From Microbotryum violaceum (Eukaryota): DNA of 64,000 nt. The stretch covers positions 1,302,001 to 1,366,000 of the forward strand of contig CDLV01000005.1 of the NCBI GenBank assembly GCA_001244265.2, in the 5' to 3' direction. A program made the position numbers and the translations under genes. This document shows, one piece after another, positions 18,727 to 50,726 of this stretch. Under the pieces are notes generated by a model. It was not told the DNA's origin. It did not search any database and saw only the letters and a list, made by a program, of their open reading frames with translations. The stretch's first letter is position 1. Every line of letters starts with the position of its first letter.

Positions 18727-18897
18727 GCTCACCCCGTCGTCAGCCCCTGCTCAGCAGCTCAGCTCGGCTCAGCTCAGCTCTGCTCACCCCGTCGTCAGCC
18801 CCTGCTCAGCAGCTCAGCTCAGCTCTGCTCAGCTCTGCTCAGCTCTGCTCAGCTCTGCTCAGCTCTGCTCAGCTCTGCTCAGCTCTGCTCTGCTCTG
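18727..18897 (+). repeat. 55-bp-period duplication followed by a (CTCAG/CTCTG)n pentamer-decamer microsatellite
   Basis: gctcaccccgtcgtcagcccctgctcagcagctcagctc at 18727 and 18782, then (agctctgctc)n to ~18897. Confidence 0.92.
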
Positions 18898-40424: not shown

Positions 40425-41900
<1,476 letters not shown>

Positions 41901-42157: not shown

Positions 42158-43173
42158 TCATGCATCGTCAATGACAATCTCGTCGTCATCCATCCACGAA
42201 GCTTCGACCGTGTTGCGCACCCGTTTGACGTATTCCTGTTAGAAGAGATGGCACGAGCTTCAGTTAGCTATCCCGAAAGTGAGATTCGTCCCGATTCCTC
42301 AATTTTTTCACCTTCATGTTCTCCCTGAACAACTGAGCCGCTTCAGCATTCGCGGGACTAAATCAAGACGAGACCAAAATCTTCAGCTTCTCCACTCCCA
42401 ATTCCAATCGTTTATCAAACTTTTCTTGTGTTGTCGGGCTCACCTATTCGGATTCGGATCATTCAACAAACTCTGCACCGAAGTCAAGATCGCGGCAACA
42501 TCGTACGTCGGACTCCAACGATTCTGCAAAATATCAAGACAGAGTTCCCCAGAGGCGTAGACGTTGGGGTGGAACATCTTGGAGACGAATTTGACCGTTG
42601 GGGGTTTGTTGGGGTAGGATTCGTCAAAGGAGAGCGCGAGACGGAAGGTGCCGTCTTCGAAGGGGGTTTCGGCTGGGGACATTGAGAGGCAGGATTGGTC
42701 AGCTTGCTTGTCGAGTCGGGAGGGAGGGTCGGTGAGAAGGTGCAACGTACCCGGTCCAAAGATGACGGCGTTCCAGACCATGATGTTATCGGCGCATGGT
42801 GAGCCAGAAATACCTCCTACAAGTGCGTGATGTGGTGGACGAACGCAGGACGATCAGTTCTGCACCGATCAGAGTGGAGGGGGGGTCCAGTTGCCTCGAA
42901 CAGTGAAGGAGCAACGCACCTGGAGGATCTGTTGAGAGCGCCTTGAAATCTCGGACTGGACAGACAAGGCATGAAAACGGGTCAGGATGAATATTGCACT
43001 CCAGGAGCAGTGGTAGGCCCGTTCTCAGTGCTGGGTCCACGGGTCATCCGACCGATCGGGGCGTCGTCATGGTCAAGGTGGAGGTGACTCGATCGGAGCG
43101 AGCCAGAGGCAGATGCACAGAGGAAGGTCCGAGAAGAGTACTTACCCAATCTCCTTCGTGCGGGCGTCGACAT
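42158..43173 (-). CDS. RAD6: E2 ubiquitin-conjugating enzyme Rad6/Ubc2, multi-exon
   Basis: [63 protein letters not shown]. Confidence 0.96.
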
Positions 43174-44510
43174 GATCAGAGCCCAGAGCGACTACGATAC
43201 TGGGGGTTAGGAGCGAGAGAGGCAGCGAGGAGCGCACGCGCTAACTTCGGCCGTGGCACGCGACTCAGCTACTACTCGGAGCTCGGAGGCTCGGCACCGG
43301 CGACCAGGGTGCAAAGTTGTGGATCATTGCATACACCTCAGCCAGTCATCTCATAATTTTGTTGCACCTACAGAAGTTAATCAACTGGGAAGCTAGACCC
43401 AAGTCGTATAGGCGAGCACCGCATACATCGAGTTTCGGTTAAAGCTCGGCGATCCCGGCCCGCTGCGGCGTGATTCCATCGAGTCCCCAACGACCATCAA
43501 AAAATGCGAGGCGAGGCCCGAGGGCGACTGGCAGAGGCCTCAATTCGGCTTTGCATTTCCATGGCCAACAGTGATAAATCACATTAGTATTGACTGCAGC
43601 CGGAGTTTCACTCTGATCCGGAATTTCTCGATCCCATTGCTCCGAGTCGACGAAAGCCGGGCTTCCAACATCAAACGTTTCAAACCCGGCCCCTACATCG
43701 AAAGGTCATCGGTCCGGATTTTCTCAGTCGCGGAGCTTCTTCGATCAGCAAATTTCCAGCCTCCAGGTCTTGGCGACACGCGTAGAAAGAATCGACCTCT
43801 GGTTAAGGGAAGTGGGGATGGCGCGATAAGCTGATGCAAAAAATCGAGGCAGCGTGGTACAACTCCAAGAACAGCCCCACGAGCGCGGCGGCGCTTAGGA
43901 CCGTGATGATGCCCAGATTCCAGCACAGCAGTCGACGAGGGACGCGTTCCGCGCACCGGGCTACTGAGATCGATCCCTGAAGCTCGTTAGAAGTTTTCGT
44001 CTTGGAAACTCTTTTCGTTTTGAACATTTGGGGGTCCCAGCCTCGACAATGATGCTATTCGAAATGGCCCAAATTAAAGTATTACCTTTCACGCGCGTGG
44101 CGGTTGATGTCCCAATAGGAGAGCCCGATTTCAGCCCGTACACAATATGGTTGTATGATATATGGCACTTGTTATGGTGGTCGAGCGGATCTAGCGTTTG
44201 TTAGTTCTGTCTTTGAACAAGACTAGCTGGAATTTATGACTTAGAACTTGAAACATTGCTCCCCCGGATAGGAGAACCCGGCATAAGAGCTCCGATCACT
44301 AATTCTCCCACCAGCCGCCGCGAATCGGCGCACTCAGCACTCAACTTGTGCCTCCGCCGGCAAATTGCAACCGCCTGGCTACCGCACGGTCCTCTCCTTT
44401 CCGTCTCTTTGTACTCTCCTTGGTGTAACTTGGGCCAAGTTGTCTCGCATCTACAAGACACACTTTCACACACACACCCTCAAGTCGCTTCTTTCTGATC
44501 TTGTACACCG

Positions 44511-45411
44511 CCGCACCATCGAGGTCAGCCCACAACGCTCGAATTCTCGACGACGTGTTACAGCGAGTCGCGTCTACTGCCAGCGACAGCCGGGCCTCCC
44601 GCCGCCGCACCGAACATGCACAGTGTGTGTCCGGTCTGCTCCTAGGCAACAGTACCGTGTCAGCACTCGATGTTGTAATTGTCGAATGCGGTCTTGGGCA
44701 ACTCGTGCGCAGCAGCATCAACTTCAGCGTGGATCTCCCTGACAGGAGCTTTGTCGGGCGCGGCGCACCACGTCGAAGAATAATCCAGGAGGAACCCGCC
44801 TGTGAGAGAGCTTTTCCAAAGAGCACTCCTATGGTCGTGCGATCCCAGATGTAATGCTTGTTCAAGTGGGTATGTCTTCAGACAGCAACGGGCCGCGACT
44901 CCCGTGACTCCGTGGCGCCGCGTCGTCATTGCTTCCCCAACCACAGAGTGTACGCACCAAAACCTGCTGTGGTGCTTCAGAAGAATAGCGAGGAGGTTTC
45001 AGCGATCACAAACGAACGATGCACAGACGTCCACCGCTGCAGCCCGAACCCGTCTGAAGACATACCCATTTGAACAAGCATTACAGTTGGGATCGCCCGA
45101 ACAAAGGAGTGCTCATATCTTTCACAAGCGGCTTCCTCCTGGAATATCCTTCCACGTGGTGCGCCCGACAAAGCTCTTTAAGGAGATCCATGCTGAAGTT
45201 GATGTTGCTGCGCATGAGTTGCCCAAGACTGCATTTGACGACTACATCATCGAGTGCTGATACTGGACTGTTGCGTAAGAGCGGACCGGAATACACATAC
45301 TATGCTTGATCGGTGCGGCGGGAGCGGGAGGATCGGCTGTCGCTAGTGGTGGACGCGAAGCTTAACACGTCGTCGAGATTCGAGCGTTGTGGGCTGACTT
45401 CGATGGTGCGG
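44511..45411 (+). ncRNA. Long imperfect inverted repeat, candidate hairpin RNA locus (arms 44511-44883 and 45052-45411, ~168-nt loop)
   Basis: The arms are reverse complements of each other, with mismatches and small indels (e.g. ccgcaccatcgaggtcagcccacaacgctcgaa vs tcgagcgttgtgggctgacttcgatggtgcgg). The repeat is certain; transcription is inferred. Confidence 0.6.
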
Positions 45412-46024
45412 AGGTACCGAGACTCGATGGCTGAGATGACGAATGGGTAGAAGCAAGCGAAGAGAAGCCTTATTGCCCGCGCTCGTTGAAGGTGGCGGGT
45501 CAATTGTAGTAAATTGCAGTCATCTAACTCTGCATTACAAGCTACAGTGACAAGTTCAGGCATGATGAAGCCCGAATGACAATGTGGCGGTCCGTGAACT
45601 ACTCCCGGGCTACGCAAGTGCGATCGATCCCGAGTCGCCGAGGCGCGTGGCCACGCAAAATTTGTCCAACATTCAGGAGCTCAGGAGCCTCTTGTGGCAC
45701 GACGCGGCTGATTCGGGCTGAGGCCCATAAATTGCAAACCGGGTAGAGACTATTTACCTACTTACTACTTGAAACTTTGTTTCGGATGATTAAGGAGAAG
45801 ATGACTGCTTTTGCGTCCCAGAAAAGTGGCGTAGAGGATTTTTCACGGATAGAGGAGCGAACATTATAGGTGCCGTTACGCAGGGTTCGCACTGCCGGAC
45901 TCGCGAGCACAGCCATGAGACGACTCAAAACTACATGTTTGCGCGCCCCTTTTTGTAAGATACCGACATTATCACATTTCATTAGGTATACTCGTATAAT
46001 GTCTAAATAGGGCTAGACTTCATG

Positions 46025-47550
46025 TCAACCGAGGACCCGTTCCACCGTCCGATTCGTCGATCCTGCCCTGACGCTGGCTATGGCTCGAGCCCTGATGGGA
46101 AGCTCAAGGTGCATTGCTGAGGTAAATGTACATTCCTTGAGCGGTGCCATAGTTCCACTGAGCTGACTGTAGAGCCAAGAATAGGCTATCGACCCGTAAG
46201 AGAGCTGGGTTCCGAGGTGGCCACCAAAACCTTTCTCGGTGACAAAGTTGATCTTGGCGCCATTGCGGCACCACGATTGGGCCGTACTCAAGGCCGATTC
46301 GTAAGGTATCACTTCGTCGCTCGTACTATGATACATAAACACTGAGGGTTGCTTTGGCGTTTCGGTGGCATTCGAACCCATGACAGACAGTTGCAGGTAT
46401 TTGGCGACCAAGGGGTGGTAGAGGAGCTCGGGGCCAAATGATTGGAATTCGGTGGAGAGGATGTCCACAAAGGCAAAGTGGACAATGTCCCACACCGCAC
46501 AATGCTGTTTGGCTATCGATAAATCGTCTGCCCCCTTCTTGGTGGCTGCTCGTGCATAAAGTGGTTGCAGTTCTGGATATGCCACAACTTGGCCGGCCAT
46601 TCCGCTGACTGCGAACCCCTGCAAGGACCGAAGGCATGGTGCCATGGGCAATTAATTCAAGCCCTCCGGTGAGCTTCACCACATGCCTGAAAACTTACAG
46701 CCCATATGCCCCCATTGACCTTGATCATCGTTGAAGTCACGTTCGTTGGCGTACCCCCAAGGGCAAGAGCTTGAATATTGAGCTCCGGGGCGTAGGTAGC
46801 GTGCAAAGCCGCGGACCAGCCGGTCCCGATCGCCCCTCCTGAGTACCCCGAGCCACCAATGATCACGTCTTTAGGTAGTCTCAGAAAGTTGATCGCGGCT
46901 CGATAGCCATCGAGAATCTGGTACCCTGCCTGGTGTCCCACCGAGAACGCCGAGTTGTTGCCTTCGAAATCGGTGACGATCACGGTCCAGTTGTACTTCA
47001 TGAACGCGTTCAACTGCCCGTCTTCGAACGCAAAAAAATGAAGAAGAAAAACCTCATATCAGGTCCCGAAAGGGGCCGCCAAACTGTTCCACCAGTGCTC
47101 ACCTCCGTCCGGGCAAAACGGCTGCACCGAATGTGTGTTGAAACAATAGGAAGGTGCACATTGCGGCGCTGCTGCGTCTTGGTACATGTTATAAGCAACA
47201 AGATACTGCGGAGAAGATCCACTATTTTGCATAATCGTCGTGACGGTCGTAGTCGGATTGTGATGTGCATCATTGGTACGGAACAGAATCTGAGTGCCTG
47301 TCCGCCCCGAACCTGGGTTCGCTGCTTTGCGCGACCGGTAGACGGTGCCAGGCTTATCCTTTCGAATTGAGGCTGGTGGGATGTAGAAAGGGTCTTTATC
47401 CGGATGAGCGAAGCTGGCCCCCCCGCCCAAAAGTGACGATGCAGTGATGCCAAAAAGTGGAGCCGAGCACGCCGGCGTCACGGACGCGAGGCCCAGACAG
47501 GAGGTCAGCAGCCGTGTGAGCAGTCGGACTGCGTCAAGCCGCCGGACCAT
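46025..47550 (-). CDS. Secreted lipase (secretory LIP family), copy 1, 3 exons
   Basis: Signal peptide, PDKDPFYIPP, CAPSY, GYSGGA nucleophile, YAPELNI, DEVIPY and GGH catalytic Asp/His; introns 47022-47102 and ~46620-46698. Confidence 0.9.
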
Positions 47551-48222
47551 GGTGTCACGACCGATGGGCAACGACAACTCTGAGAAGAAGAGTGGAATTG
47601 AGTCTGGAGCTGGGCGCTTGCCCCGGAACGGTGAATGCACTGCCATTGCCACAAGGGCGGTCGCCGACGAACTAGGCCGGCAACCGAGACGCGGTGCGAT
47701 CCAACCACTGCACCGAACGAACTCGGTCTGGAGACGAGCGACGGTGTTGAGTTATATATGGGCTCCCAAACAAACTTTCGTGTGTCAAACAGTCTAAATC
47801 AATAAAATAGCTGCCCAAGCGTGCTCCCGCACTTGTATGCAGACAGGCGCCGCTCGAGCCCCGAATGCACTGACCCGACGTCCGTGTCCACGCACGCACG
47901 CGAAGCAGTCGCAGCTCAGTGTGGTGGCTCCTTTTTACAGTAAAATAGTGTCGGTTCACAAGCAAACGCATCTTTTCGAGTTGCCGGGCAATGTCCCCTG
48001 TCGACTGCGCATCAATTGCCACCCCGTCCTTTCAACCTAAGTTGGAGTCGATTGAATGCCACATCTAAAGACCAGAAAACTGAAGTCTCGTGATCGACAC
48101 TCGGTATCGCAAAAGTGGATTTTTATACGATGTTATGGGACGAGGGAAGACGTGGGGGTTATGTCTAGATCAAATGCGGCTGATCAGATCGATGACGAGG
48201 GTATGCGAGGGCAAAAGTCCGG

Positions 48223-49752
48223 TCATTTCTGAATCTTGCGAGAATAAGATCGCAAAGTATGCATGCGAGAGCGTTTCCTGATCGGCAACGAAAGACTAAA
48301 CCCGGAAGTGAAGGAGCATTTCGTAAGGGGAGCGATATCCCCTCGCAATTCGCCATCGAGCCAGGCGAGGGCGGTGTCGCCATAGGCCATTTGAGTACCC
48401 ATATGCCCAGATATGCCCTTGAGGGTCACGAAGTTGATCTTGGCGCCGCGGCGACACCAGGCATGAGCGGTCTTTTGCGCAGCCTCATACGGGATGACTT
48501 CATCCATGTTGCTGTGGAACATGCAGATTGATGGTTTCGTGGGCGTTTCGGACGACTTGGTACCCATTACGGATTTCTTGAGGTATTTGGAGAATACGGG
48601 ATCGTACAAGAGATCTTCGCCCAGAGACTGGAACCTCGTCGAGAAGATGTCACTGAAGGCAAACTTCAAGAGTGCGTAGTTTGCGCAATGGCTTTGCGCA
48701 GCACTGATCTTGGAATGGCCGAACCGTGTCGCGATTTGGTTGAAGCGAGAGTTCAAATCAGGGAATACCGCCAGTTGTCCCGCCAGTCCGGTCATCCCAA
48801 AGCCCTGTGTCAGATCGTGAGAGCACGGGCCGGACCAGACAGTGAGCTGGCGCGTCTGGTGACTGTGTGCCGCCGGGGACCGCAACTCACGGCGTACAGG
48901 CCACCATTGAGGTGCATCAAGGTCGAAGTCACATTCGTCGGAGTGCCGCCAAGCGTGATTGCTTTGATATTGAGCTCGGGAGCATAGGTATTGTGCAAAG
49001 ACGCGGCCCATCCTGTTGCGAGTGCACCACCGGAGTAACCGAAGCCTCCGAGAATGATCTTCGGAGGCAGAGAGAGAAAGTTGATCGCAGCTCGGTATCC
49101 GTCAAGAATGTGGTAGCCGGCGAGGTGGCCCACAGAAAATCCCGAGTTTGTGCCTTCGTAGTCGGTTACGATCACTATCCAGCCCTTTTGTATGTAAGAC
49201 AATAACTGGTCATCTAAACAGCACATCATCGTGGTGGAGGTTAGTGACTGCGCCTTTCCAGCTGACTGAATGAAAAAAGCACATCAACTTGCCTACATCT
49301 GGACAGAAGGACTTCCCAAGATCGGTATTGAAGCAGTAGGATGGGGCACATTGTGGAGCCGCGGCATCCTCGTACATATTCCAAGCAACCAGATACTGCT
49401 TCTCGCCGGTCGGCGGGTTCGCCTGCAAGATCGTCGTTACCGTCGTCGCGGGTTTGCCCTCGGCGTCGACCGTCCGGAACAGAACCTGAGTGGCGGTCAG
49501 ATCCGAGTGACCGGGGTTTATGGCATAGCGGTATTGATAGAATGTGCCGGGGGTATCATCCGCAAAGGTACTAGGTGGGGTGTAGAACGAGTCGGCGTTA
49601 GGGTAAGGAAAGTCGGATGTCGAGCCAGCATTCGTTGGCCAGAGGCCGCCCAGCAAGGACGTGAGTGACTTGGCGCGAACGGGAGGCAGCGCTATGAGTA
49701 GGGCCAGGAAGACGAGGTAACGAGCGAGGGACCACTTTCGACGAGATAACAT
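48223..49752 (-). CDS. Secreted lipase (secretory LIP family), copy 2, 3 exons
   Basis: Signal peptide MLSRRKWSLARYLVFLALLIALPPVRA, CAPSY, GYSGGA, YAPELNI, DEVIPY, SGH; introns at the same positions as copy 1. Confidence 0.9.
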
Positions 49753-50726
49753 GTTATGGTGGATGAGAGGGAGAGAGCGCTGTAGAAGAAGAGTGATTCC
49801 TGCACGTATCGAGCGGTGTGGCCGTCGCAGACTGTGCACCGCCGCGCACTCCTTTCACGTGAGGATTCGGACAGCGGGTAGGCACTCGGATGTGGGGAGT
49901 TTGAGCTGCTTGGGCCTGAGATGTCTCTGGGTTACCTGGGGTACTGCACAAGATAACGTCTCGGCCTTGTTCTAGAGTGTCCTAGCTCGTTCAATACCGA
50001 GTCTAGCACACGGACACAGCGGCCTGAGCTCTTAGGCCCACCCAGCCTTGAGCTGCCCCCCACCGGCCGGCTGTGGATCCCGGGTTTGTCGGCGCCGCCC
50101 CGTACGACACCGCCATTCGACTTGTGGTATTGTGCTTTATTTACGATCTTACAACATTGCTGGCTGTTGGTAGTACAGAATCCTGATTCAGAGAAAGACT
50201 GACCTCTGCGTTCGCGCTGAGTAACACGAACTTAAGACCATTGGAATTGGGCTGCAGGCCGTCCGCCCGCGTCAAAACCGGACGCCTGTTGTAGCTCTGG
50301 AACTCAACGAACACGATGAATCCGGCGCAAGCAACTCTCTTCACCAGACCAAGCATCTCTTTCAAGTTGCTTTGTCCAGCCGAACACGGAGCTGAGCGAA
50401 CGCAACACCCCGCGCATGTCAGTGGGATAGAAGTCCCCTGTTCCTCGACCAGCGCAGAGCGAAACGATTCTCGACCTCTCTTTCCGAATCTTCTTCGCAA
50501 GGTAAAAAGCAAAAAAAAAGAAGTTCAAGGCCATTGTCCATAAATAAACGATAGGAGACGTGAAAAGATCAAGAGAGAACACAAGCTCATGAAATGTGCT
50601 TAGATCGTTATACACAACGGGAGAATGGAACTAAACCCCAGCACCACCGACGCAAACTCCACTCTAATGTTGCAACACGACACGGCCTCGAGTCCTCGGT
50701 GTCCCGATCGCCTACTCATCGTTGGG

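What the first reader, a model, noticed from the sequence alone, without database searches (positions are those of the whole stretch)
44511..45411. ~370-bp imperfect inverted repeat with strand-biased G:U pairing: candidate long hairpin RNA (siRNA/milRNA precursor)
Seen: two arms (44511-44883 and 45052-45411) are diverged reverse complements around a ~168-nt loop, with probable extra pairing outside them (tcgcttctttct ~44485 vs agaagcaagcga ~45449). In my manual alignment, transition mismatches that form G:U wobbles in a plus-strand transcript outnumber those forming A:C by roughly 17 to 7 (approximate count). Known: such asymmetry is typical of selected hairpin RNAs, whereas neutral decay of a DNA inverted repeat should be strand-symmetric. 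No transposase, short terminal inverted repeats or target-site duplication are evident, and indels break the shared reading frame. Inference: a Dicer-substrate hairpin locus beside secreted lipase genes, possibly silencing a gene or TE family in trans, or host transcripts.
Basis: partly seen in the sequence, partly recalled or inferred. Interest (0 to 1): 0.85.

Follow-up and report, generated by a model that had tools for sequence, protein, structure and literature searches.

The report
Decaying inverted repeat in Microbotryum spacer
A real, roughly 0.9-kb fold-back of two diverged mirror-image copies lies between genes of an anther-smut fungus, but the sequence gives no solid sign that it is a selected hairpin-RNA gene rather than an old, decaying duplication.

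Summary
The inverted repeat is real. Arms 44507-44896 and 45039-45415 are 81% identical (blastn E 2e-103), have 8 indels and are separated by a 142-nt spacer. It is the only long inverted repeat in the 64-kb window.

An arm bias is stronger: the right arm carries A/T at 20 of 27 transitions, p=0.019. Both strands fold equally well (-677 and -657 kcal/mol).

One 60-bp plus-strand duplex without mismatches exceeds permutation nulls (p 0.004-0.045, post hoc). Five of its 6 changes are CpG transitions, which suggests clustered deamination.

The arms have no protein relatives, no match elsewhere in the window, no target-site duplication and no lipase relic.

The host is Microbotryum, whose sequenced species is reported to have expressed Dicer, Argonaute and RdRP genes, so dicing is possible. 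No RNA data could be laid.

Best reading: a decaying non-coding inverted duplication or fold-back relic. A functional hairpin-RNA gene is about 15% likely.

The parts
44507..44896 (.). Left arm of the inverted repeat (390 nt, GC 0.585). It is the GC-richer and apparently better-preserved copy.
   Evidence: Local alignment, blastn, the repeat finder pieces I1-I8, GC content.
44897..45038 (.). Unpaired spacer or loop (142 nt, GC 0.57).
   Evidence: Lies between the alignment ends. Folds only into small local stems in the MFE structures.
45039..45415 (.). Right arm (377 nt, GC 0.536). It carries the A/T allele at 20 of 27 transition differences.
44679..44738 (+). Left half of a 60-bp stretch, pairing with 45182-45241, that has no mismatch in a plus-strand RNA (54 Watson-Crick pairs and 6 G:U). 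Five of the 6 differences are CpG transitions.
   Evidence: the longest run is 60 on plus and 20 on minus, permutation p 0.004 to 0.045. CpG vs non-CpG inside the block, Fisher p=0.007.
45182..45241 (+). Right half of the same 60-bp stretch. It holds five C-to-T-type differences on the plus strand, four of them at CpG.
44660..44929 (-). 89-aa ATG ORF that starts in the spacer and runs outward through the left arm. The right-arm counterpart has no ATG and a shifted frame. Probably not a gene.
   Evidence: ORF; codon score 0.073 against off-frame ORFs at mean -0.095, sd 0.129, so ambiguous; no relatives.
44485..44496 (.). Not above chance.
   Evidence: 32% of shuffles score as well.
42440..43173 (-). 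Left neighbour: a ubiquitin-conjugating enzyme (E2) gene. Its first exon begins MSTPARRRL near 43173, so its promoter side faces the repeat.
   Evidence: Pfam UQ_con, E 5e-34. ORF 42982-43191. The exon structure is inferred.
46025..47751 (-). Right neighbour: a secretory lipase (LIP) gene whose 3' end faces the repeat. A tandem paralogue lies at 48223-49854.
   Evidence: Pfam PF03583, E 6e-17 and 2e-18. Direct repeat D1, 72% over 299 nt.

Best explanation
This is an old, non-coding inverted duplication that is decaying by ordinary point mutation and small indels. It has two arms of about 380-390 bp and a 142-bp spacer. It lies in an unusually long (about 2.85 kb) gap between an E2 ubiquitin-conjugating gene and a secretory-lipase gene of a Microbotryum anther-smut fungus.

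Its origin is either a local fold-back or template-switch duplication, or the insertion of a fold-back-type non-autonomous element. I split these roughly evenly.

Since then the two arms have drifted to 13% mismatch (Jukes-Cantor 0.145). The right arm has lost G/C faster, and that includes a burst of CpG deamination in one 60-bp block. This bias, not selection for RNA pairing, produces the modest excess of G:U-compatible differences on the plus strand.

Shown: the structure, the divergence, the mutation pattern, and the absence of coding signal, of window-internal targets and of duplicated insertion sites. Inferred: neutrality and the mode of origin. If read-through transcription crosses it, the RNA would fold and probably be diced as a by-product, because the RNAi genes are reported present, but without a selected target.
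For: - The repeat is real and unique in the window.
- The two arms differ at 49 of 371 aligned sites and by 8 indels. Transitions to transversions are 27:22, which shows no sign of pair-preserving substitution.
- G:U vs A:C is 18:9, p=0.12.
- The arm asymmetry is at least as strong: 20:7, p=0.019, with GC of 0.585 against 0.536.
- MFE is -677.3 kcal/mol on plus and -657.1 on minus, with z-scores of -34 and -38.
- Five of 6 differences in the only long G:U-tolerant run are CpG transitions (Fisher p=0.007). A run of 5 identical G/A differences has p=0.036.
- No frame shows a synonymous excess.
- No Pfam family was found for 6 arm ORFs.
- Three frames had no protein relative. The single phmmer hit among 1.84 billion representatives is a summed 13/44 match to an 8-fold tandem-repeat protein.
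- There is no similarity to the rest of the window and none between the flanks.
- Intergenic regions in M. lychnidis-dioicae average 502 bases, and 14% of the genome is TE, including 438 TIR, 39 MITE and 1,942 unclassified copies (PMC4469406, passages read). A relic in a 2.85-kb gap is therefore unremarkable.
Against: - The plus strand has a 60-bp uninterrupted duplex against 20 bp on the minus strand. Runs of 19 bp or more number three on plus (33, 60 and 34 bp) and two on minus (20 and 19 bp). That exceeds label-shuffle nulls: p=0.004, or 0.022 for plus and 0.045 for either strand when transitions are re-oriented. Some selection for plus-strand pairing is therefore not excluded, though the test is post hoc.
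- With one alignment setting the G:U bias reaches p=0.023.
- Overall, transitions are not enriched at CpG (8 of 27 against 61 of 186 unchanged C/G sites; Fisher p=0.83) or at TCG (2 of 27 against 18 of 186). A deamination or RIP-like process explains only the central block.
- An inverted repeat has survived to 14.5% divergence without deletion.
- Neutrality is inferred, not shown. Copy number in the genome, the orthologous loci and all RNA data are missing.
Confidence: 0.6

Rival explanations
1. It is a selected long-hairpin RNA (hpRNA) gene. A plus-strand transcript folds into a roughly 370-bp imperfect duplex, and Dicer cuts this into siRNAs that silence a gene or transposon family elsewhere in the genome, or host transcripts.
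For: - The hairpin folds strongly.
- The G:U excess has the predicted direction (18:9).
- The plus strand has three duplex runs of 19 bp or more (33, 60, 34 bp) against two (20, 19 bp) on the minus strand, and the 60-bp run has p 0.004-0.045.
- RNAi genes are reported present and expressed in M. lychnidis-dioicae (PMC4469406, passages read).
- In the stripe-rust fungus, of the same subphylum, 14 of 33 gene-associated sRNA loci were long inverted repeats (PMC4578785, passages read).
- It sits in a gap far longer than the reported average intergenic length.
Against: - The bias is not significant (p=0.12), and an arm-biased GC-to-AT decay plus a CpG cluster explains it as well.
- The minus strand folds almost as well.
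- The window holds no target: no exact match of 14 nt or more, and the best tblastn E is 0.05 among 29 peptides.
- The arms show no trace of a parent protein-coding gene, which is the usual origin of such loci.
- There are 31 non-wobble mismatches and 25 bulged columns.
- Well-supported fungal hairpin sRNA loci are short (PMC9757828, passages read).
Confidence: 0.15
2. It is specifically a dead non-autonomous DNA transposon with long terminal inverted repeats (fold-back, MULE-like or MITE-like), one of many dispersed copies. This is one of the two origins allowed under the best explanation. The confidence given here lies inside the 0.6 given there and is not additional to it.
For: - The repeat has sharp ends and unrelated flanks.
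- The outermost 50 columns are the best conserved, at 94% against 68-87% further in.
- There is no coding capacity.
- The genome annotation lists 438 TIR, 39 MITE and 1,942 unclassified TE copies (PMC4469406, passages read).
Against: - No target-site duplication is seen, though 14.5% divergence could have erased a short one.
- There is no second copy in 64 kb.
- At 909 bp in total, with roughly 380-bp arms, it is larger than typical MITEs (recalled).
Confidence: 0.28
3. The left arm holds a small orphan gene (the 89-aa ORF at 44660-44929, minus strand), and the right arm is its decayed head-to-head pseudocopy.
For: - An ATG ORF with a stop is conserved in position in both arms.
- Its codon score of 0.073 and GC3 of 0.62 lie within the range of real genes in the window, -0.036 to 0.318.
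- The left arm is the better-preserved copy.
Against: - The score is only 1.3 sd above off-frame ORFs.
- In the 111-nt block containing its 3' end, synonymous to non-synonymous codon differences are 6:7.
- It has no relatives at any length among 1.84 billion representatives other than a spurious repeat hit.
- It has no Pfam family.
- I see no hydrophobic N-terminus (by eye).
- Its start codon lies inside the 142-nt spacer, which leaves no room for a promoter outside the other arm.
Confidence: 0.06

Closest known systems
Inverted-repeat small-RNA loci of the stripe-rust fungus Puccinia striiformis (pst-sir loci; PMC4578785, passages read)
   Same: Same subphylum (Pucciniomycotina, recalled). 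Both are long inverted repeats of several hundred bases that would give a long hairpin if transcribed through. The RNAi machinery is reported present.
   Different: The rust loci are tail-to-tail pairs of expressed homologous genes with near-perfect complementarity and mapped 18-22-nt reads. This repeat is non-coding, only 81% identical, has its ORF remnants head-to-head, and has no RNA evidence.
Drosophila hpRNA genes and plant inverted-repeat siRNA loci or young MIRNA genes formed by inverted duplication of a target gene (recalled; no paper read here)
   Same: Arms of several hundred nt, imperfect pairing, a single-stranded loop, and an origin by inverted duplication.
   Different: Those loci keep recognisable similarity to their target genes and are defined by Dicer-dependent small RNAs. 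Here no parent or target was found, in the window or among proteins, and small RNAs are untested.
Fold-back or long-TIR non-autonomous DNA transposons (MITE and TIR classes annotated in M. lychnidis-dioicae; PMC4469406, passages read)
   Same: Almost the whole element consists of two inverted arms. It has no coding capacity, sharp ends and an intergenic site.
   Different: There is no target-site duplication and no second copy in the window. Genome-wide copy number is unknown.
RIP-like hypermutation of duplicated DNA in Microbotryum (reported for TEs: PMC4469406, passages read; the TCG target is recalled)
   Same: A duplicated sequence of about 390 bp with an excess of C-to-T-type differences in one copy, and a block where 5 of 6 changes are at CpG.
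   Different: Across the arms, transitions are not enriched at CpG (8 of 27 against 61 of 186) or TCG (2 of 27 against 18 of 186), and 22 of 49 differences are transversions.

Membership tests
Long-hairpin RNA (hpRNA / inverted-repeat siRNA) locus | Inverted repeat able to form an intramolecular duplex of more than 100 bp | tested here: met
   On the plus strand, 322 Watson-Crick and 18 G:U pairs over 371 aligned positions, MFE -677 kcal/mol, z -34. The minus strand is equally capable (-657).
Long-hairpin RNA (hpRNA / inverted-repeat siRNA) locus | One transcript spans both arms on one strand | not testable with these tools
   No reads could be laid and no genome or transcriptome is held.
Long-hairpin RNA (hpRNA / inverted-repeat siRNA) locus | Dicer-dependent 20-24-nt small RNAs from both arms | not testable with these tools
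   Two searches of the held library listed no Microbotryum small-RNA study. RNAi genes are reported present and expressed (PMC4469406).
Long-hairpin RNA (hpRNA / inverted-repeat siRNA) locus | Extended complementarity to a target gene or transposon | tested here: inconclusive
   None within the 64-kb window: the longest exact match is 12 nt, and no k-mer of 14 nt or more is shared. The rest of the genome and the host could not be searched.
Long-hairpin RNA (hpRNA / inverted-repeat siRNA) locus | Substitution pattern that preserves pairing on one strand | tested here: inconclusive
   18:9, p=0.12. Range p 0.023-0.185 over 6 alignment settings. A local 60-bp run has p 0.004-0.045, post hoc, and consists of CpG transitions.
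microRNA-like (milRNA) precursor | Short stem-loop with one precise duplex | tested here: not met
   The structure is 909 nt long with roughly 380-nt arms. The only Rfam match is MIR828 at 30.6 bits against a gathering score of 69. Supported fungal milRNA hairpins are short (PMC9757828).
MITE / fold-back DNA transposon | Target-site duplication flanking the terminal inverted repeats | tested here: not met
   The longest shared direct word in the end zones is 4 nt, and 91% of shuffles do as well.
MITE / fold-back DNA transposon | Multiple dispersed copies | tested here: inconclusive
   No other copy in the window. The whole genome is not held.
RIP-like hypermutated duplicate | Transitions concentrated at the preferred cytosine context (CpG/TCG) | tested here: not met
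   Whole arms: 8 of 27 transitions at CpG against 61 of 186 unchanged sites (Fisher p=0.83), and 2 of 27 at TCG/CGA against 18 of 186. Met only inside 44679-44738 (5 of 6, p=0.007).
Protein-coding gene or pseudogene pair | Coding signal or protein relatives | tested here: not met
   No synonymous excess in any frame. No Pfam family. No credible relatives. The codon score is ambiguous.

The most novel reading that the evidence does not exclude
The locus is a genuine endogenous long-hairpin RNA gene of an anther-smut fungus. It would be transcribed on the plus strand, perhaps from the promoter region it shares with the divergent E2 gene, and diced into siRNAs from its 33- to 60-bp perfect stretches. 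Those siRNAs would act on a target outside this window, possibly a host Silene transcript. It would be the first natural hpRNA described in Microbotryum.
Probability: 0.13. Interest if true: 0.6.

Novelty: new member of a known kind. Interest (0 to 1): 0.25.

Why it matters
If it is only a decaying inverted duplication, it matters little. It is one more relic in a long intergenic gap, and a reminder that a G:U excess between hairpin arms can come from biased C-to-T mutation, here arm-biased and partly at CpG, and not only from selection on RNA pairing.

If it were a transcribed and diced hairpin, it would give Microbotryum a concrete endogenous siRNA source. Microbotryum is a model for host specialisation and sex-chromosome-like evolution, its RNAi genes are reported as expressed, and I found no published small-RNA map for it. 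The locus could then be tested by deletion. Inverted-repeat sRNA loci are already described in a rust fungus, so even then it would extend a known kind rather than found a new one.

Tried and rejected
- RNA evidence. The look-up of sequencing runs listed 20 holders from 7 studies under four coded organism labels, and no RNA holder was listed. This says nothing about expression.
- Laying reads. No reads or contigs were laid, so I have no strain comparison and no polarised substitutions.
- Whole genome. None is held for this window.
- RIP-like origin of the bias. Rejected for the arms as a whole and kept only for the 60-bp block.
- Coding origin. There is no synonymous excess, no Pfam family for 6 arm ORFs, and no relatives for the 89-aa, 178-aa and 141-aa ORFs within 0.55-1.75 times the query length (longer or shorter forms were not searched there). 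phmmer of the 112-aa ORF against 1.84 billion representatives gave 1 hit, which I rejected. It is eight copies of one 13/44-identity match in a tandem-repeat protein, each at about 27 bits. The other frames of the right arm were scanned against Pfam only.
- Lipase relic or lipase target. Rejected.
- Relatedness of the flanks beyond the arms. Rejected: scores of 26 and 24 against a shuffle mean of 21.8 and maximum of 30.
- Extra outer pairing. Not above chance.
- tRNA and tandem repeats. No tRNA, and only trivial tandem repeats.
- Rfam. Only a sub-threshold MIR828 match, expected for any hairpin.
- Metagenome scan with a 20-nt stretch shared by both arms. It gave 5 loci, all bare 20-21-nt chance matches.
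- Earlier notes of this scan. Nothing on this genome or sequence, and the 8 word hits concern unrelated prokaryote and phage features.
- Literature. Four searches listed no Microbotryum small-RNA, hairpin or fold-back study. The A-to-I editing paper PMC13608869 has no occurrence of hairpin, dsRNA, inverted or intergenic. Supplements were not opened. The TE and expression tables of PMC4469406 might say whether this locus is annotated or expressed.

Full report
WHAT IS THERE

The sequence at 44300-45650 holds a genuine imperfect inverted repeat. The repeat finder breaks it into eight gap-free pieces of 80-100% complementarity. A gapped local alignment joins them into arms 44507-44896 and 45039-45415. 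That alignment has 396 columns: 322 matches, 49 mismatches and 25 gap columns in 8 indels of 1, 1, 2, 3, 3, 2, 5 and 8 nt. Blastn of the region against the window finds only this pair, at 81.3% identity and E 2e-103.

A scan of all 64 kb finds no other long inverted repeat. Apart from pieces of this one, it reports only two pairs of 41-46 nt at 71-72% complementarity, 5-8 kb apart. The spacer is 142 nt, not about 168. The p-distance is 0.132 and the Jukes-Cantor distance 0.145. Identity in 50-column bins is 0.94, 0.74, 0.80, 0.84, 0.84, 0.80, 0.68 and 0.87 from the outer to the inner end.

THE STRAND-BIAS CLAIM

In a plus-strand RNA, 18 transition differences give G:U and 9 give A:C. The two-sided p is 0.12 and the one-sided p is 0.061. 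Over six scoring schemes the counts were 18:9, 18:8, 18:8, 18:10, 18:6 and 21:12, with p from 0.023 to 0.185. Transversions number 22 of the 49 mismatches.

The same 27 transitions split 20:7 by arm: the left arm has G/C where the right arm has A/T (p=0.019). GC is 0.585 in the left arm and 0.536 in the right. If the changes ran from GC to AT, which is unpolarised and so an assumption, then "G:U excess on plus" and "C-to-T excess on plus" are the same count. The statistic therefore cannot separate selection on pairing from a biased mutation process.

Folding gives -677.3 kcal/mol (z -34) for the plus strand and -657.1 (z -38) for the minus strand over 44480-45460. Either strand would make a long hairpin.

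A LOCAL SIGNAL AND ITS LIKELY CAUSE

The plus-strand duplex has uninterrupted Watson-Crick plus G:U runs of 33, 60 and 34 bp. The minus strand reaches only 20 and 19 bp. The 60-bp run (44679-44738 with 45182-45241) contains 6 G:U pairs.

Shuffling the mismatch classes among the 49 mismatch positions gives a run that long in 0.4% of trials. Re-orienting each transition at random gives it in 2.2% of trials on the plus strand and 4.5% on either strand. The test is post hoc. Five consecutive differences there are of the same type (left G, right-arm complement A; p=0.036).

Five of the 6 changes in the block are at CpG. That is 5 changed against 6 unchanged CpG-context sites, compared with 1 changed against 23 unchanged other C/G sites (Fisher p=0.007). 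This is what a burst of cytosine deamination on one strand of the right arm would leave.

Across the whole arms there is no CpG or TCG enrichment: 8 of 27 against 61 of 186, p=0.83, and 2 of 27 against 18 of 186. A RIP-like process, reported for Microbotryum transposons (PMC4469406, passages read), therefore does not explain the divergence in general.

CODING POTENTIAL

Both arms carry a similar ORF tail ending in a stop at matching positions. An 89-aa ATG ORF (44660-44929, minus strand) starts in the spacer. Several tests argue against a gene.
- No frame shows a synonymous excess, and the indels shift the frame between the arms.
- A codon score trained on nine long ORFs of the window gives 0.073 for this ORF. 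Real genes score -0.036 to 0.318, and 95 off-frame ORFs score a mean of -0.095 (sd 0.129, maximum 0.202). This is ambiguous.
- Pfam finds nothing for six arm ORFs apart from one sub-threshold RD3 match (E 0.019, 15 bits against a cut-off of 27).
- Word-index searches of three left-arm frames find no relatives within the searched length bands.
- phmmer against 1.84 billion representatives returns one hit. It is a weak 13/44 match repeated over eight tandem repeats of an unrelated 1343-aa protein, and I reject it.

CONTEXT

The neighbours are:
- a quinolinate phosphoribosyltransferase-type ORF and a ubiquitin-conjugating E2 gene whose first exon begins near 43173 on the minus strand;
- two tandem secretory-lipase genes on the minus strand at 46025-47751 and 48223-49854.

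The repeat thus lies in a gap of about 2.85 kb. It is 1.3 kb upstream of the E2 start and about 0.6 kb beyond the lipase stop.

One window protein is found exactly in the public collection, and its 90% cluster holds proteins named from Microbotryum saponariae and M. silenes-dioicae. The genus is therefore Microbotryum. For M. lychnidis-dioicae, PMC4469406 (passages read) reports:
- mean intergenic length of 502 bases, and UTRs of 183 and 253 bases;
- 14% transposable elements, including 438 TIR, 39 MITE and 1,942 unclassified copies;
- seven secretory lipases, four of them apparently partial;
- one Dicer, two Argonautes and one RdRP, all expressed.

The gap is therefore unusually long, the repeat lies beyond typical UTR reach, and dicing of a hairpin is possible in principle.

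TARGETS, MOBILITY AND RELATIVES

- Nothing else in the window resembles the arms. The longest exact match is 12 nt, no k-mer of 14 nt or more is shared, and the best tblastn E is 0.05 among 29 peptides. The adjacent lipases are not targets by complementarity.
- The flanks are unrelated to each other, and the gap holds no lipase relic.
- There is no target-site duplication, no tRNA and no Rfam family. MIR828 matches at 30.6 bits against a gathering score of 69.

No related DNA could be obtained.
- No genome is held.
- A metagenome scan with a 20-mer gave five chance matches.
- The scan's earlier notes hold nothing relevant.
- Twenty public runs from 7 studies under four coded organism labels hold the stretch, 19 of them with at least half of its sampled words. 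The locus is therefore not peculiar to one assembly.
I have no strain comparison and no RNA evidence in either direction.

INTERPRETATION

I think the most likely account (0.6) is a non-coding inverted duplication that is simply decaying. Its origin is either a local fold-back duplication or a fold-back-type non-autonomous element. The right arm has lost G/C faster, and a CpG deamination cluster creates the one long G:U-tolerant stretch.

A selected hairpin-RNA gene stays possible (0.15).
- For it: the fold, the direction of the bias, the 60-bp run, the reported RNAi genes, and the precedent of long inverted-repeat sRNA loci in Puccinia striiformis, where 14 of 33 gene-associated loci were of this kind (PMC4578785, passages read).
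- Against it: the weak statistics, no parent or target found, many mismatches and bulges, and the finding that well-supported fungal hairpin sRNA loci are short (PMC9757828, passages read).

An orphan gene with a pseudocopy is unlikely (0.06).

NOVELTY

Four searches of the held papers listed no Microbotryum small-RNA or hairpin study. Inverted duplications, fold-back elements and inverted-repeat sRNA loci are all known kinds. At best this is a new member of one of them. The tests that would decide are given in the decisive next steps.

Noticed in passing
window 46025-47751 and 48223-49854 (minus strand): Two tandem secretory-lipase (PF03583) paralogues, 72% identical over a 299-nt stretch at a spacing of 2192 nt. 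Each is split over several frames, by introns or by decay. The published genome paper says four of the seven lipases of M. lychnidis-dioicae look partial.
   Followed up: partly
window 43173-46025: The intergenic gap of about 2.85 kb is more than five times the reported mean of 502 bases. Apart from the inverted repeat I found no ORF with a family, no tRNA and no Rfam match in it.
   Followed up: partly
window 18727-18896: A 55-nt unit repeated twice, followed by a run of 10-nt GCTCAGCTCT-like units. This is a minisatellite-like array in or near an ORF.
   Followed up: no
window 40425-41791 (plus strand) and 42440-43173 (minus strand): Spliced genes for a quinolinate phosphoribosyltransferase-type protein (QRPTase_C, E 8e-21) and a RAD6-like E2 enzyme (UQ_con, E 5e-34). 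The E2 promoter side faces the inverted repeat.
   Followed up: partly
window 44851-45084: Sub-threshold Rfam match to plant MIR828 (30.6 bits against a gathering score of 69) across the tip of the hairpin. I take it to be a by-product of any stem-loop.
   Followed up: yes
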